A DNA stretch of 32,239 nucleotides from a virus (Duplodnaviria; Heunggongvirae; Uroviricota; Caudoviricetes): the IMG/VR virus record IMGVR_UViG_2645727843_000011; one strand, written 5' to 3'. Under the pieces are notes generated by a model that made no database searches, was not told the DNA's origin, and worked only from the letters and a program-made list of their open reading frames with translations. The first letter of the stretch is position 1; each line of letters starts with the position of its first letter. Below are positions 5,413 through 8,867 of the stretch, one piece after another. Position numbers and translations under genes: made by a program.

Positions 5413-6603
5413 TTAATTGCTGTTAACCGAGGTGACCAGATTTGCCAGGTATTTATCGGTAATACGCTGGCGCAGGGTCAGGTTTTCGAGAGGAGGCACC
5501 GGGGTATAGTCGTAGTCGATATACAGTTTTCCGGCCTTGAGGGTTTCCGCATCGTTGGATTCTTCGCTGAACCAGCAGGTCGCATCCACGATATAGCCGT
5601 TTGTTTTCAGCTCTCGGAATTTGGCATTGATGCCGTCAACGATGTCGCGAATCAGCGTTGCGGTGATGGGCTTGTCCACCGCCCACATGTGCGCCTCAGC
5701 CATCGTGTCGGCCAGCACCTGCGCGGTGCGGGTGTAGTTTTCAAAGAGGAACAGCGGGTCATCAGAGCAGGTACGGTTACCCCAGAAGCGGAAACCGTCA
5801 CGGCGAATCAGCGTTGTGACGCCTGACTCGTTAAGCAGGTCAGCATCGGTGCCGGACTCCTGCAAATCCCAGAATACGGACGCGCTGATGCCGGTAACAC
5901 CGTTTACCCCGACGTTGGACAGCGTTTTATGCCAGCCCTGCTCCTGGTCGATTTTAGCGCGCAGACCCAGCGCACGGGCGGTGGCATACGCGGTGGCGGT
6001 GGTACTGGTGACCGTATCCCATGCGAGGAAATCCGGCCAGATGACCATCAGCTCACGCTGGCTGAAATTCTGGCGGTAGGCTTTCACCTCGGAAATGGTC
6101 TTACAGCCCCATGCGCTGATATATCCGAAAGCGCGCAGCTTCTGACAGACGGATGCCAGTGCAACAGCCACCTCTTTGGTATCCAGTCCCGGCACACCGA
6201 GAATACGCGGTTTAACACCGGTTACCGACTCCGCCGCCAGCAGGGCTTTTAGTCCGGTGTACTGACCGTTTTCGTCGGTAGTGCCGATGATATTGGAAAC
6301 GGTCTGCGCGAGTTTCGTTTCCTCGTCATCACCGGTGCCGTCTTCCACGCGCACGACAACGGTGACCGGTTTTGACTGGTCAGCGATGGCCTGCAACGAT
6401 GCCGCCAGCGTGCCTTTTTTACCGGCCTTTGCAATTGCGCTTTGCACATTGGTAATCAGCACCGGTTTATTGAGGGGGAAGGTTTCCGCATCCGCATCGC
6501 TGGCCGTGCAGACCATGCCGACAATGGCAGTGGATACGGTGGAAATGACGCGGGTGCCGTCGTTAATCTCCAGCACCTGCACGCCATGATGATAGTCACT
6601 CAT
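5413..6603 (-). CDS. FI: Contractile tail sheath protein gpFI, 396 aa
   Basis: 396-aa ORF beginning MSDYHHGVQVLEINDGTRVISTVSTA..., ATG at 6601..6603; length and position match P2 FI. Confidence 0.9.
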   Translation of the reverse strand: MSDYHHGVQVLEINDGTRVISTVSTAIVGMVCTASDADAETFPLNKPVLITNVQSAIAKAGKKGTLAASLQAIADQSKPVTVVVRVEDGTGDDEETKLAQTVSNIIGTTDENGQYTGLKALLAAESVTGVKPRILGVPGLDTKEVAVALASVCQKLRAFGYISAWGCKTISEVKAYRQNFSQRELMVIWPDFLAWDTVTSTTATAYATARALGLRAKIDQEQGWHKTLSNVGVNGVTGISASVFWDLQESGTDADLLNESGVTTLIRRDGFRFWGNRTCSDDPLFLFENYTRTAQVLADTMAEAHMWAVDKPITATLIRDIVDGINAKFRELKTNGYIVDATCWFSEESNDAETLKAGKLYIDYDYTPVPPLENLTLRQRITDKYLANLVTSVNSN

Positions 6604-6694
6604 CCGTTTAACTCCGTGGTTAATGGGTGCAACTATTTTCTGTTGTGCAGAGCATAAGACGCTATTTGACCTGGCTGGTCAGTGGATGAAACAA
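6604..6694 (-). promoter_or_regulatory. Putative late promoter region for the FI operon (PF-equivalent)
   Basis: Non-coding interval between the intrinsic terminator at 6695..6726 and the FI start; P2 has an Ogr-dependent late promoter upstream of FI (established knowledge); exact -10 and Ogr dyad not resolved by eye. Confidence 0.35.
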
Positions 6695-6726
6695 CAGATA
6701 AAGAAAAGGCGGGCAATTCGCCCGCC
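6695..6726 (-). terminator. Rho-independent terminator on the - strand upstream of FI
   Basis: On the - strand: GGCGGGC-GAATT-GCCCGCC followed by TTTTCTTTATCTG; perfect 7-bp GC stem and U-rich tail. Confidence 0.6.
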
Positions 6727-6786
6727 TGTCCTGATTTGTACTCACTCATTTTCCGCCTGACAATTTACATAGCCCAAATGCTATCA

Positions 6787-6802
6787 AATCTGACAGTCTG
6801 CT
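6787..6802 (+). repeat. Copy A of 16-bp site aatctgacagtctgct (putative recombinase site or cassette boundary)
   Basis: Exact 16-mer shared with the reverse complement of 9220..9235; 11-bp core ctgacagtctg shared with 9099..9109. Confidence 0.6.
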
Positions 6803-6933
6803 TTGAGCGAAAAGTGGACATTAGAGTTACAAAAGCAAGTTTAAATCATCCAAAATATTACAATGTCCTTATCTATCTGATATCGTTATGATAAAAAGCT
6901 CCTGAATATAATCGATAGTAGGTGGTTATTTCC

Positions 6934-7311
6934 ATGAAATCAATTTTAGAGGTTTTTACTCAAGGAAATACTAAAGAAAAACTGGCTGTTATCGCCGATC
7001 TCACAACCATTGCGGGAATATCGATTGCAACTATTATTGCTGGTTTGTTAACCCTAGTTGCAAAAACAGATAAACTAGATGTTGGAAATCTGTTTGGAGT
7101 TGTCATAATATCTCTGCTCGGATTGGCTGGTGTTTGCTGTTTTGTGGCCTTATTTATTTGGGTTATAACCCAAATGTCTAAACCATGGGGAACACCTCGG
7201 GGGGTTCAGCCCTTAGTTAAGTGTGCTATTTCCCTTATCTTTATCTGTATGTTTTTGCTGGCTGTCTTTACATTTTATGAGTTTATTTCTTCGATGAGCA
7301 TACGCTATTGA
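6934..7311 (+). CDS. Small hydrophobic membrane protein (about 125 aa, 3-4 predicted TM segments), cargo gene
   Basis: ORF 6922..7311 in the track begins with GTG; the first ATG at 6934 follows a GGTGG RBS with 8-nt spacing; translation is dominated by hydrophobic stretches (IAGISIATIIAGLLTLVA, GVVIISLLGLAGVCCFVALFIWVI, ISLIFICMFLLAVFTF); AT-rich. Confidence 0.6.
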   Translation: MKSILEVFTQGNTKEKLAVIADLTTIAGISIATIIAGLLTLVAKTDKLDVGNLFGVVIISLLGLAGVCCFVALFIWVITQMSKPWGTPRGVQPLVKCAISLIFICMFLLAVFTFYEFISSMSIRY

Positions 7312-7333
7312 ATATAAAATCAGCCCCCATAAC

Positions 7334-7918
7334 TTAAAAGAGACCTTCTATATCGACTTCAATGCCCAAATAACGGACTGTGCTTTCCAGTTTCTTATGG
7401 CCCAACAGAAGTTGGATCACCCAGAGACTCTTGGTTTTCTTGTAGATTAAGTAAGGTTTTGTTCTTCTCATGGAATGTGTGCTGTACAGCGAATCTTCGA
7501 GACCAAGCTTTTCTACCCACCCATGAAAAATTCGGTTGTATTGCCGGGTTGATATATGGTGGTTAGTTCCGACCCGAGAGCGGAACAGGAAGCCTTTACT
7601 ATGCCAGTTGCCGAGCTTTATCAATGCAGTAACCGCTTCCCTTGTCCCTTTGGTTATCTCAAATTGGACAGGGCTGCCGGTTTTCTGTTGCAACACCGTT
7701 GCTCTGCTTGAGACAGAACTGCCATATGCAGCATCTGATACTTTGAGTTTGACCAAATCACAGCCCCGTAGCTTAGTGTCCAAAGCCATGTTGAACAGAG
7801 CTAGATCGCGTGTTTTACCTTCCAACTCAAGTCTAATCCGGATCCCCCAGATATGAGATATCTGAAGTGGCCTTTTTTGACCGATGGTACGGTCTTTATT
7901 CCACGGTGACGTTTTCAT
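7334..7918 (-). CDS. Short tyrosine site-specific recombinase, FimB/FimE-like (about 194 aa from the ATG at 7918; the track ORF extends to 8020 from a TTG)
   Basis: Translation carries the tyrosine recombinase catalytic signature: Arg box (LDTKLRGCDLVKLKVSD), KTG lysine, HSMRRT (HxxR) and LLGH...TVRYL with the catalytic Tyr; size is that of FimB/FimE-type invertases rather than a 330-400 aa phage integrase; AGGAG RBS 9 nt before the ATG at 7916..7918. Confidence 0.7.
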   Translation of the reverse strand: MKTSPWNKDRTIGQKRPLQISHIWGIRIRLELEGKTRDLALFNMALDTKLRGCDLVKLKVSDAAYGSSVSSRATVLQQKTGSPVQFEITKGTREAVTALIKLGNWHSKGFLFRSRVGTNHHISTRQYNRIFHGWVEKLGLEDSLYSTHSMRRTKPYLIYKKTKSLWVIQLLLGHKKLESTVRYLGIEVDIEGLF

Positions 7919-7920
7919 AT

Positions 7921-7949
7921 TCAAATCTCCTGCAATGTGGGAGATTTGA
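7921..7949 (-). promoter_or_regulatory. RNA hairpin sequestering the recombinase Shine-Dalgarno
   Basis: 10-bp perfect inverted repeat tcaaatctcc (7921..7930) and ggagatttga (7940..7949) with a 9-nt loop; on the - strand mRNA the SD GGAG lies in the 3' arm, 2 nt before the ATG. Confidence 0.45.
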
Positions 7950-8024
7950 GTATGGTTGTCTCTCAAGAGCGAAAATAAGTCAACTATCACTAGTTGTTGC
8001 GCATGTACGTATTCTGTCAATTAA

Positions 8025-8867
8025 TTATTGACAATCATCAATTCTGGAATGATCAAAATCATCATATCGAATTATAGTCTGGTTGACTGTATCTATTGTT
8101 GGTGTCATTTCTGTTATAATATCCTGATAACCTAAAGAGTTAAATACATTTACTAAGGCCTCACACCGAAGGGCCGTAGCAATTACAAAATTATAAATTG
8201 CCAGCCGTTTATTTTCTTGTTTAACTGCAAGAATGAATTCGATAGAAGTATTTTCATCACTTTGGATTGCATTATATAGAGATACTATATTTACCATATC
8301 ATCAGAGAATGTATGTATTGAATCACAAAGGGGAACGTAATGGGCATGATAGTGTGTTTCCCAGCCAATTAATTCAAAAAGTTTTCTGGTTCCTGGATAT
8401 TCAGGTGTATTTGGCCACAATCTATTAAATAGATCAGTTAGTTCTTTTCCCATGCGAATCCTTTCATTTGCTGCTGGATTAGTCATTCCTTTGGATTTTA
8501 AACACTCCAGCCACCGTTTTCCATTACTATGAACTAATTTCTTACTAGCCTTGAGTAATGCTTGTGCATTTTCGCCATCATCTATTGCTATATAAAATTG
8601 ATTGGCAGCCTGTTCTATTATAACCCTAGCTAATACTTCCGATGCTGAAAAGGCTCCTATATTCAAAGAAGAGATAGCCTGATTACTAAGTTCATTCAGT
8701 ACATTAAAGTACTGTAAGACCATCAATTTTTGTTCCACACCCTTTAGGTTGTCTATTTTATTTTTATGCTCCTCAAATTTTGCATGGATATATTTATTTA
8801 TCGCGGCTATTTTTTTTACATCTTCGTCAAGATCAAACGGGCAACGTCCAAACAATTCTTTTTTCAT
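8025..8867 (-). CDS. Hypothetical protein, 280 aa, AT-rich cargo gene upstream of the recombinase
   Basis: 280-aa ORF, ATG at 8865..8867 with an AGGAG RBS; no family recognised by eye; same strand as the recombinase gene, which follows 106 bp downstream. Confidence 0.6.
   Translation of the reverse strand: MKKELFGRCPFDLDEDVKKIAAINKYIHAKFEEHKNKIDNLKGVEQKLMVLQYFNVLNELSNQAISSLNIGAFSASEVLARVIIEQAANQFYIAIDDGENAQALLKASKKLVHSNGKRWLECLKSKGMTNPAANERIRMGKELTDLFNRLWPNTPEYPGTRKLFELIGWETHYHAHYVPLCDSIHTFSDDMVNIVSLYNAIQSDENTSIEFILAVKQENKRLAIYNFVIATALRCEALVNVFNSLGYQDIITEMTPTIDTVNQTIIRYDDFDHSRIDDCQ

What the first reader, a model, noticed from the sequence alone, without database searches (positions are those of the whole stretch)
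6934..7311. Small multi-TM protein at the FI-proximal edge of the cargo slot
A roughly 125-aa protein with three or four hydrophobic helices, transcribed opposite to the late genes, with its own RBS. Small prophage membrane proteins at hotspot positions often mediate superinfection exclusion (blocking DNA injection) or act as abortive-infection effectors. Copy A of the 16-bp site lies about 130 bp upstream of its start.
Basis: inference. Interest (0 to 1): 0.45.

Follow-up and report, generated by a model that had tools for sequence, protein, structure and literature searches.

The report
Orphaned prophage membrane-protein gene cassette
The ORF is a real, conserved gene for a small three-helix inner-membrane protein of unknown function: it is the surviving half of a mobile two-gene cassette (membrane protein plus P-loop ATPase) sitting in a known phage-defence hotspot of a P2-like prophage, and a defence role is plausible but untested.

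Summary
Observation confirmed. Window 6934-7311 (+) encodes a 125-aa protein with an AGGTGG RBS and three (not four) TM helices. It is transcribed opposite to the late genes, in the P2 Z/fun slot between FI and G.

It belongs to phrog_4155 (function unknown). No Pfam, NCBIfam, PADLOC, PDB or fold match was found. Close relatives occur only in Enterobacterales. A wider family of about 56 cluster representatives shares its length, its topology and an N-terminal motif.

In Serratia, Enterobacter, Klebsiella and a plasmid-like contig this module also holds a convergent 556-aa Sll1717-family/nSTAND1 P-loop ATPase. The two genes have co-diverged. All 64 E. coli copies have lost the ATPase. Most keep its last 53-59 codons; this window lost even that to an unrelated recombinase + DUF5677 segment.

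The gene also stands alone in some P2 slots. In a lambdoid prophage it lies next to PD-T7-1.

The defence or exclusion reading rests only on location and neighbours. Best guess is an autonomous membrane-acting exclusion factor (about 0.35). The main rival is an orphaned partner or effector of the ATPase.

The parts
6787..6805 (+). It is the junction of the conserved P2 flank (...AATCTGACAG) with the left arm of the cassette L site.
   Evidence: 3 copies in the window, 0.01 expected; homology to other P2 phages ends at 6813, and homology to non-P2 loci starts at 6796-6800.
6796..6819 (+). Cassette 'L' site, GTCTGCTTTGAGCGAAAAGTGGAC. It consists of 7-bp inverted arms, NN, a 6-bp core GAGCGA and NN. 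This is the left boundary of the TM module.
   Evidence: The same site precedes the TM gene in L015, L017, L020, L022, L023 and L024. In arrays it is paired with an R site 16-19 bp upstream.
6820..6933 (+). Upstream region that travels with the ORF. It holds a conserved block at about 6857-6895, a possible weak promoter read by eye (-35 TTACAA 6858-6863, extended -10 TGaTATCGT 6878-6886), and the RBS AGGTGG at 6919-6924.
   Evidence: conserved in Serratia, Yersinia and Pectobacterium. The consensus scan found no sigma-70 site here, so the promoter assignment is inference only.
6934..7311 (+). The ORF: a 125-aa three-TM inner-membrane protein in phrog_4155. Conserved N-terminal motif: G-N-x-K-E-K-L-A-V-I-A-D-L-T-T-I-A-G-I-S.
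7336..7352 (.). Left arm and loop (AAAAGAGACC TTCTATA) of the ancestral bidirectional hairpin terminator AAAAGAGACCTTCTATAAGGTCTCTTTT. The right arm is missing. The breakpoint with the recombinase/DUF5677 segment lies after 7352.
   Evidence: alignment with L015, L017, L020 and Serratia L006.
7334..7918 (-). Short (194-aa) tyrosine recombinase, convergent with the TM gene. Its last ~6 codons are encoded by TM-cassette sequence, so its 3' end was replaced at the breakpoint. It is not part of the TM module.
   Evidence: the family is normally 200 aa and ends ...GIEVDDALEISESIEV.
8025..8867 (-). DUF5677 protein (phrog_4167). It travels with the short recombinase independently of the TM gene.
9066..9114 (+). 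Diverged duplicate (71%) of the P2 left flank plus the L-site left arm.
   Evidence: (family D1).
9203..9226 (+). Cassette 'R' site, GTCCGCTCCTAGCACAGAGCAGAC. It is followed by TGTCAGATT, an inverted copy of the P2 left flank. This is the right boundary of the slot.
   Evidence: (I1).

Best explanation
SHOWN.
- Window 6934-7311 is a genuine gene for a 125-aa inner-membrane protein with three TM helices. The predicted topology is N-in/C-out, with only about 8 + 5 residues exposed to the periplasm.
- The gene is part of a discrete mobile module that starts at a 24-bp site (6796-6819) and carries its own upstream region.
- In its complete form the module is a two-gene cassette: TM gene, bidirectional hairpin terminator, then a convergent 556-aa Sll1717-family (nSTAND1-like) P-loop ATPase. 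This form is found in Serratia, Enterobacter, Klebsiella and a plasmid-like contig.
- All E. coli copies are orphans. Most share one internal deletion that leaves the last 53-59 ATPase codons.
- In this window the remnant itself was replaced, by illegitimate recombination inside the terminator loop, with an unrelated short-recombinase + DUF5677 segment.
- The orphan gene has stayed intact. It has been moved into at least four arrangements: alone in the P2 slot, with DUF6650, with recombinase/DUF5677, and in a lambdoid hotspot.

INFERRED.
- The protein is made in the lysogen from its own promoter and acts on its own in the cytoplasmic membrane as a phage-exclusion factor.
- With so little periplasmic exposure, it would most likely act in the membrane plane or at the cytoplasmic face. 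It could interfere with genome entry, or with a membrane step of superinfecting phages, rather than with adsorption.
For: Gene reality.
- ORF, RBS and RefSeq annotation.
- phrog_4155 match, E = 8e-83 over the full length.
- 21 close clusters. 56 remote representatives of 112-135 aa (two of them short fragments of ~70 aa, one 183 aa) with a shared motif.
- dN/dS 0.15-0.5.
- AF2 model with pLDDT 79.5 and three long helices.

Discrete module.
- DNA homology to Serratia, Yersinia and Pectobacterium is confined to window ~6800/6857-7300/7350.
- IMG/VR loci match 6796-7352.

Complete pair.
- Found in five contexts.
- ATPase family assignment.
- Co-divergence. ATPase dS 0.2-0.53 with omega 0.02-0.04; TM dS 0.12-0.29.

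Orphan status in E. coli.
- ATPase remnant starting at residue 498 in 11 loci.
- No megablast match to the ATPase gene in 5,426 E. coli genomes.
- TM module present in 64 genomes, with at least 80% of the query covered in 63.

Autonomy.
- TM is the only cargo in some P2 slots, encoding the identical protein.
- It has different convergent neighbours in Yersinia, Pectobacterium, L021 and L169.
- The recombinase + DUF5677 pair travels separately.
- DS-41, a validated distant relative of the lost ATPase, works as a single gene.

Defence context.
- Literature on the slot.
- Defence-type neighbours.
Against: - No homology or fold similarity to any characterised exclusion, Abi, holin or immunity protein.
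- The gene's longest-standing neighbour is the ATPase, so it may need that partner.
- dN/dS among the orphan E. coli alleles is 0.42-0.75 on very few substitutions. That is compatible with relaxed constraint.
- One copy is IS5-disrupted and one relative is truncated, so loss is tolerated.
- The consensus scan found no sigma-70 promoter upstream.
- In this window the terminator is broken, so transcripts would run antisense into the recombinase gene.
- There are no expression or phenotype data.
- The protein is absent from all 50,697 sequenced phage isolates searched.
Confidence: 0.35

Rival explanations
1. The protein is the membrane partner (effector or anchor) of the convergent Sll1717-family/nSTAND1 P-loop ATPase in a two-gene defence system. 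The ATPase senses infection and acts through the TM protein, for example by membrane permeabilisation. In this window the sensor is gone, so the TM gene is a non-functional or only residually functional orphan.
For: - The pair is conserved as one L-R-bounded unit in Serratia, Enterobacter, Klebsiella, an unassigned chromosome and a plasmid-like contig. It has co-diverged to dS 0.2-0.5.
- The ATPase has no recognisable effector domain: the P-loop starts at about residue 50.
- The TM family has a strongly conserved cytoplasmic N-terminal motif that could be a docking surface.
- TM proteins are frequent effectors next to NTPases in P2/P4 hotspots (Rousset 2022).
- Orphan alleles show a higher dN/dS.
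Against: - The two genes are convergent and separated by a bidirectional terminator; they do not form an operon.
- Close TM homologues (74-79% identity) have other neighbours and no ATPase remnant in Yersinia and Pectobacterium.
- The orphan stayed intact and spread into several contexts in 64 E. coli genomes.
- DS-41, a distant relative of the ATPase, defends as a single gene.
- The ATPase is far more constrained (omega 0.02-0.04) than the TM protein.
Confidence: 0.25
2. It is a membrane protein with a non-antiphage role. It could confer immunity to a pore-forming bacteriocin or another membrane-targeting toxin; E1-type colicin immunity proteins are also ~110-aa, three-TM, N-in proteins. Other forms of lysogenic conversion of envelope physiology are also possible.
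For: - Size and predicted topology.
- Polymorphic-toxin-like genes (DUF8093 with phospholipase or endonuclease domains, plus Ank proteins) lie a few kb away in Serratia and Yersinia.
- One relative sits next to a TolA C-terminal-domain protein.
Against: - No Pfam or NCBIfam hit to any immunity family at E <= 1.
- No cognate toxin is consistently adjacent.
- The resemblance to colicin immunity proteins is recalled from general knowledge, not tested here.
Confidence: 0.15
3. In this prophage the gene is a hitch-hiking remnant with no current function. It persists only because the cassette was acquired recently.
For: - Orphan alleles are 95-100% identical, leaving little time for decay.
- dN/dS is 0.42-0.75.
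- The partner gene and the terminator are lost.
- IS-disrupted and truncated copies exist.
Against: - At least 80% of the module is covered in 63 of 64 E. coli genomes, and the copies annotated here carry full-length ORFs.
- The family-wide invariant residues L17, D22, G28 and S30 are retained.
- The same orphan cassette has been re-mobilised into several hotspots.
- There is long-term purifying selection in relatives that also lack the ATPase.
Confidence: 0.15

Closest known systems
P2 Fun(Z), the reference occupant of this slot
   Same: It occupies the same position between G and FI. It has the same orientation, opposite to the late genes. It is a non-essential lysogenic-conversion gene, and the cloned gene blocks T5.
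   Different: Fun(Z) is a 528-aa protein with no sequence similarity to this one (BLASTP E = 1.3).
Prophage or phage inner-membrane superinfection-exclusion proteins (T4 Imm, P22 SieA, HK97 gp15; own knowledge)
   Same: They are small polytopic or bitopic inner-membrane proteins. They are expressed constitutively from a moron and act alone.
   Different: No PHROG, Pfam or NCBIfam family annotated as exclusion matches this protein. No phenotype is known. Periplasmic exposure is very small.
Transmembrane effectors paired with NTPases or enzymes in P2/P4 hotspot defence systems (Rousset 2022, PMC9122126; RexB type)
   Same: A small TM protein is encoded next to a P-loop NTPase inside a defence hotspot, and the pair is conserved across genera.
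   Different: The arrangement is convergent across a terminator rather than an operon. In this window the partner is absent. There is no PADLOC hit.
DS-41 single-gene defence protein (DefensePredictor, PMC13092281), relevant to the lost partner
   Same: The 556-aa partner hits NCBIfam NF053860 'DS41_1 anti-phage protein' at E = 3.7e-15 and belongs to the Sll1717 P-loop ATPase family.
   Different: The score is 55.8 bits against a cut-off of 370, so it is not a member. DS-41 has no TM partner listed.
Integron gene cassettes
   Same: Cargo units are bounded by short imperfect-palindrome sites and arranged in arrays. In some chromosomes a tyrosine recombinase gene lies next to them (L036, L163, L166, Nissle L159).
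   Different: The sites are pairs of 24-bp elements (R, 16-19 bp, L), not attC. The recombinase is ~200 aa and scores 14-16 bits against IntI models with cut-offs of 265-435. Cassettes carry their own promoters and terminators and occur in both orientations.

Membership tests
phrog_4155 (PHROGs, unknown function) | Full-length match to the family profile | tested here: met
   E = 8.3e-83, residues 1-125 on profile positions 5-129 of 129.
Characterised superinfection-exclusion, holin or hemolysin families (PHROGs, Pfam, NCBIfam) | Significant profile match to an annotated family | tested here: not met
   The best annotated PHROG hits are hemolysin at E = 0.13 and holin at E = 0.16. Pfam and NCBIfam give nothing below E = 0.1. 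0 of 38 family members give a consistent Pfam hit.
Known anti-phage defence proteins (PADLOC-DB 2.0.0) | Match to any of 5,027 defence-protein models | tested here: not met
   No hit at E <= 1. The library dates from 2023, so later systems are not covered.
Superinfection-exclusion proteins (functional class) | Expression in the lysogen blocks infection after adsorption | not testable with these tools
   This needs plaque, adsorption and DNA-entry assays.
Inner-membrane polytopic protein | At least two hydrophobic helices of ~20 residues with a positive-inside charge bias | tested here: met
   The KD 19-residue window peaks at 2.2, 2.8 and 2.7. AF2 gives helices at 13-44, 50-81 and 91-120 with pLDDT 79.5. 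Loop 81-96 carries +3.
Two-gene TM + Sll1717/nSTAND1 ATPase cassette | A convergent 556-aa P-loop ATPase downstream of the TM gene within the same L-R unit | tested here: not met
   The ATPase is present in L006, L163-L168. It is absent from the window, which diverges inside the terminator loop at 7352. tblastn found no significant ATPase match in the window.
P2 Fun(Z) | Sequence similarity to NP_046777 | tested here: not met
   BLASTP E = 1.3.
Integron cassette | An attC site with GTTRRRY/RYYYAAC cores, and an IntI-type integrase | tested here: not met
   The sites are GTCCGCT-NN-TGGCAC/GAGCGA-NN-AGCGGAC. The recombinase scores far below the IntI cut-offs.

The most novel reading that the evidence does not exclude
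The TM protein and the convergent Sll1717-family ATPase form a previously undescribed two-gene anti-phage system. That system is one cargo of a wider, integron-like but non-integron cassette platform in Enterobacterales. The platform consists of ~200-aa tyrosine recombinases plus paired 24-bp sites (R, 16-19 bp, L). It feeds defence genes into the P2 Z/fun slot, lambdoid hotspots, mobilisable elements and chromosomal arrays. The orphan TM gene in this window would then be a trace of that traffic.
Probability: 0.2. Interest if true: 0.7.

Novelty: new member of a known kind. Interest (0 to 1): 0.42.

Why it matters
The Z/fun slot of P2-like prophages is a recognised reservoir of anti-phage genes, yet most of its cargo is unannotated. 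This analysis turns an anonymous ORF into three testable objects.

1. A small membrane-protein family. It has about 56 cluster representatives and no Pfam model, and it recurs in defence-type neighbourhoods.
2. A conserved pairing with a P-loop ATPase whose family contains a validated defence protein.
3. A defined 24-bp site pair at cassette boundaries. This explains how such cargo is swapped between P2-like, lambdoid and chromosomal hotspots.

If the protein excludes phages on its own, it adds a compact single-gene defence. If it needs the ATPase, E. coli lysogens carry a disarmed remnant.

Tried and rejected
- Fold searches gave no match at E <= 0.001. The first AF2 model was searched against PDB and the better model against BFVD. 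Top hits were 14-3-3 and assorted uncharacterised viral proteins, which are meaningless for a three-helix bundle. The afdb50 library was unavailable.
- A PDB sequence search with the family profile gave only chance hits to hydrophobic segments, best E = 0.023.
- Rfam found nothing in 6000-9900 at E <= 1.
- The consensus promoter scan found no sigma-70 site upstream of the ORF. The promoter I suggest was read by eye.
- I considered that the TM gene works with the adjacent short recombinase and DUF5677 protein. I rejected this as an obligate link. The TM module occurs in 64 E. coli genomes but the full slot in only 36. The recombinase + DUF5677 pair occurs in 55 genomes, including a lambdoid prophage locus in which no TM gene is annotated. 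The junction between the two is an illegitimate breakpoint that truncates both the terminator and the recombinase 3' end.
- I considered that the 16-bp site is an operator or promoter element of this gene. I rejected this because it is the hybrid junction of the P2 flank with the cassette L site.
- A GTDB species-representative scan found only one locus, in Pectobacterium. Scans for remote relatives in IMG/VR and JGI metagenomes added little.
- Nilsson et al. 2004 (Mol Biol Evol 21:1), which first described the inverted repeats at this slot, is not held in the library. Only its GenBank annotation could be used.
- No paper in the library cites the protein accessions, the PHROG ids or the site sequences.

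Full report

Yes. An ORF runs from ATG 6934 to the stop at 7309-7311 on the + strand and encodes 125 aa. AGGTGG lies at 6919-6924, 9 nt before the ATG. RefSeq annotates exactly this ORF (WP_000836023.1) in E. coli S88 and other genomes that carry the same prophage segment at 99.7-100% identity.

- The window is a P2-like prophage. The tail sheath gene FI (5413-6603), the tube gene FII, the tail-fibre assembly gene G (9288-9815) and the fibre gene H are all on the - strand. The ORF is therefore antisense to the late genes, like fun(Z) in P2 itself.
- GC content is 38% against 51% for the window.
- Hydropathy analysis and two AlphaFold2 runs (pLDDT 64, rising to 79.5 with a deeper alignment) give three long helices: about 13-44, 50-81 and 91-120. 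A short amphipathic helix precedes them at 4-10. So there are three TM segments, not four.
- Net charge is +3 in loop 81-96 and about 0 in loop 44-51. This implies N-in/C-out, with only about 8 loop residues and a 5-residue tail in the periplasm.
Two further copies lie at 9096-9114 (+) and 9217-9235 (-); 0.01 matches are expected by chance.

**2. Is it a gene under selection?**

- The protein matches phrog_4155 (unknown function) over its full length, E = 8e-83.
- It has 21 close clusters at 57-99% identity. All named ones are from Enterobacterales: E. coli, Enterobacter, Klebsiella, Serratia, Yersinia and Pectobacterium.
- An exhaustive profile search found 56 cluster representatives at E <= 1e-3. 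Apart from a few shorter or longer entries they are 112-135 aa long. The 38 aligned have three hydrophobic segments and a conserved N-terminal motif, G-x-A-K/R-E-R/K-L-A-V/I-I/V-A-D-x-x-S-I-x-G-V-S. L17, D22, G28 and S30 are invariant or nearly so.
- dN/dS is 0.19-0.41 between E. coli, Serratia, Yersinia and Pectobacterium copies.
- No Pfam, NCBIfam, PADLOC or PDB family matches. Fold searches were uninformative.

**3. The gene is a discrete mobile module.**

- DNA similarity between the window and the Serratia, Yersinia and Pectobacterium loci is confined to about 6800/6857-7300/7350. That is the ORF plus 77-135 bp upstream.
- In IMG/VR contigs the unit 6796-7352 recurs at 96-98% identity in several settings:
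  - a P2 slot that holds nothing else (L015);
  - P2 slots that also hold a DUF6650 gene, where the site is duplicated on both sides of that gene (L017-L019);
  - a non-P2 79-kb contig (L020).
- In complete E. coli genomes the module is present in 64 of 5,426, always chromosomal. The whole slot as in the window is present in 36.
- Annotated examples confirm the arrangements:
  - TM alone, encoding the identical protein (CP054282);
  - DUF6650 + TM (SaT040);
  - a lambdoid prophage between the hokD side and the replication genes, about 570 bp from a PD-T7-1 homologue with PADLOC E = 8e-159 (CP076709);
  - an IS5-disrupted copy.
- No sequenced phage isolate encodes the protein (tblastn against 50,697 records).

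**4. What the '16-bp site' is.**

It is part of a 24-bp element with 7-bp inverted arms.
- L flavour: GTCCGCT-GT-GAGCGA-AA-AGTGGAC (window 6796-6819).
- R flavour: GTCCGCT-CC-TGGCAC-AG-AGCGGAC (window 9203-9226).

In the P2 slot the outermost L and R abut the inverted backbone sequences AATCTGACAG and CTGTCAGATT. Where two cargo units are adjacent, the junction is R, 16-19 bp, L. Twelve distinct junction sequences were found in the loci held.

Of the 80 loci fetched, 24 are P2-like and 56 are other contexts, and 39 carry 2-6 sites.

GenBank AJ512683 (Nilsson et al. 2004) annotates 'left/right inverted repeat' at these positions. The existence of repeats at the slot is therefore already known; I could not read that paper. 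'Copy A' is thus the cassette boundary, not a regulatory site of the ORF.

**5. The ancestral cassette had two genes.**

Downstream of the TM stop codon, intact cassettes carry a perfect hairpin, AAAAGAGACC-TTCTATAA-GGTCTCTTTT.

In five contexts this hairpin is followed by a convergent 556-aa gene, its upstream region and an R-like site:
- Serratia (L006);
- Enterobacter ludwigii (L163, L165);
- a plasmid-like contig with ArdA and IS66 (L164);
- an unassigned chromosome next to SymE, HicB and CbtA genes (L166, L167);
- a Klebsiella michiganensis mobilisable element next to HEPN_AbiV (L168).

The 556-aa protein is a P-loop ATPase.
- NCBIfam Sll1717 family: 208.9 bits against a cut-off of 75.
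- Pfam nSTAND1: 27.3 bits against 27.1.
- It is distantly similar to the NCBIfam model for the validated single-gene defence protein DS-41: 55.8 bits against a cut-off of 370, so it is not a member.

The two genes have co-diverged. ATPase dS is 0.2-0.53 with omega 0.02-0.04. TM dS is 0.12-0.29 with omega 0.15-0.5.

The E. coli 'TM-alone' cassettes retain the last 53-59 ATPase codons (81-89% aa identity, starting at residue 498 in 11 loci) together with the ATPase upstream region. This points to one internal deletion followed by spread. No ATPase gene was found by megablast in the 5,426 E. coli genomes or in PLSDB.

**6. What happened in this window.**

Similarity to the intact cassette stops after 7352, inside the terminator loop. 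From there to about 9065 lies a different segment. It encodes a 194-aa tyrosine recombinase (7334-7918, -) and a DUF5677 protein (8025-8867, -).

- The recombinase family is normally 200 aa. Here the last ~11 codons are replaced by 5 codons read from TM-cassette sequence. The junction is therefore an illegitimate breakpoint, not a site-specific one.
- This pair travels independently of TM. It covers at least 80% of the query in 55 genomes, including a lambdoid hotspot where the recombinase is a pseudogene.
- Homologues of the recombinase at 88-95% identity occur in 845 of 5,426 E. coli genomes. Some lie next to L/R-type sites and arrays:
  - Nissle L159;
  - the chromosomal array L036, which also contains a truncated TM homologue;
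  - L163 and L166, next to the intact TM + ATPase pair.
- A 49-nt diverged copy of the P2 left flank sits at 9066-9114.

**7. Function.**

Nothing identifies the biochemical role.

Facts that bear on it:
- It is a polytopic inner-membrane protein with minimal periplasmic exposure and a family-wide conserved cytoplasmic or interfacial N-terminus.
- It has its own upstream region and terminator.
- It is always found in accessory hotspots of mobile elements among defence-type genes: PD-T7-1, AbiV, PIN_12, a RelA_SpoT-like protein, a DUF2971-like protein and the Sll1717 ATPase.
- The slot is a documented defence hotspot.
- It has a long association with the ATPase in one clade, but different neighbours in Yersinia, Pectobacterium, L021 and L169.
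- It persists intact as an orphan in several arrangements.

I rank four readings:
- an autonomous membrane-acting exclusion factor, about 0.35;
- an orphaned partner or effector of the ATPase, about 0.25;
- a non-phage membrane role such as toxin immunity, about 0.15;
- a functionless remnant, about 0.15.

The convergent, terminator-separated layout, the variable neighbours and the single-gene precedent of DS-41 favour autonomy. The co-diverged pair and the lack of an effector domain in the ATPase favour partnership.

dN/dS among orphan alleles is 0.42-0.75, but it rests on about 10 substitutions per comparison. It cannot discriminate between these readings.

**8. Comparison with what is known, and verdict.**

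The gene is a new, uncharacterised member of a familiar kind: a moron-type membrane protein in a prophage defence hotspot. It is not a member of any characterised exclusion, holin, Abi or immunity family tested, and it is unrelated to Fun(Z).

Its interpretation is reasonable by location but unproven. It also missed two points: the gene is half of a two-gene cassette, and the repeat is the cassette boundary.

The most novel reading still open is a TM + ATPase defence system carried by a recombinase-and-site cassette platform that is distinct from integrons.

Noticed in passing
window 6796-6819 and 9203-9226; L017 7650-7715; L020 8921-8986 and 9820-9885; L036 5860-5925; L159 1840-1905: Paired 24-bp sites delimit cargo units in P2 slots, in other prophages and in chromosomal arrays. 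R is GTCCGCTYCTGGCACNNAGCGGAC and L is GTCCGCTGTGAGCGANNAGCGGAC, with junctions of R, 16-19 bp, L. The R pattern has at least 120 exact hits in IMG/VR, most of them outside P2-like contigs. No paper in the library prints these sequences.
   Followed up: partly
window 7334-7918 (-); L159 3964-4566; L163 5732-6334; L166 8384-8986; L036 4509-5039: A family of very short (~200-aa, catalytic-domain-only) tyrosine recombinases occurs at 88-95% identity in 845 of 5,426 E. coli genomes. Members often lie beside L/R-type sites or the TM + ATPase cassette. The window copy has a replaced C-terminus (194 aa) but keeps the HxxR and RY motifs. Whether this family acts on the 24-bp sites is untested.
   Followed up: partly
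window 8025-8867 (-): The DUF5677 protein (phrog_4167, 280 aa) always accompanies the short recombinase. The pair is found in 55 E. coli genomes, in the P2 Z/fun slot and in a lambdoid hokD-side hotspot next to an AAA ATPase + HNH pair. A preprint (PMC12632615) tested a DUF5677 ORF from Bacillota; it is not among the ORFs that preprint names as giving antiphage defence.
   Followed up: partly
window 9066-9114: A diverged (71%) direct duplicate of 49 nt of the P2 left flank plus the L-site arm lies about 90 bp before the R site. It looks like the relic of a second slot boundary brought in with the recombinase/DUF5677 segment.
   Followed up: no
L006 8506-10176; L163 8505-10175; L164 808-2478; L166 6507-8177; L168 6504-8174: The 556-aa Sll1717-family/nSTAND1 P-loop ATPase is 95.5-99.8% identical across four genera-level contexts, with omega 0.02-0.04. 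It is a candidate defence gene. No megablast match to it was found in the complete E. coli genomes or PLSDB plasmids searched.
   Followed up: partly
L024 1680-3038 (E. coli CP076709, lambdoid prophage): A PD-T7-1 homologue (PADLOC E = 8e-159) and a GIY-YIG fragment lie immediately upstream of a TM-gene copy. The same lambdoid hotspot in another strain (L160) holds the recombinase + DUF5677 pair. P2 and lambdoid hotspots therefore share cargo.
   Followed up: no
window about 10700-11400, within gene H (9819-11924, -): The tail-fibre protein contains about five tandem copies of a 44-aa unit (...GLVQLSSATNS.SETLAATPKAVK.AYDLANGKYTAQDATTARK...). They appear as 132-bp-spaced self-matches.
   Followed up: no
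window 6707-6727: A strong GC-rich hairpin (AGGCGGGCGAATTGCCCGCCT followed by a T-run on the - strand) lies between the slot and the FI upstream region. By position it lies near where the P2 reference annotates the pF activator site and transcription start.
   Followed up: no
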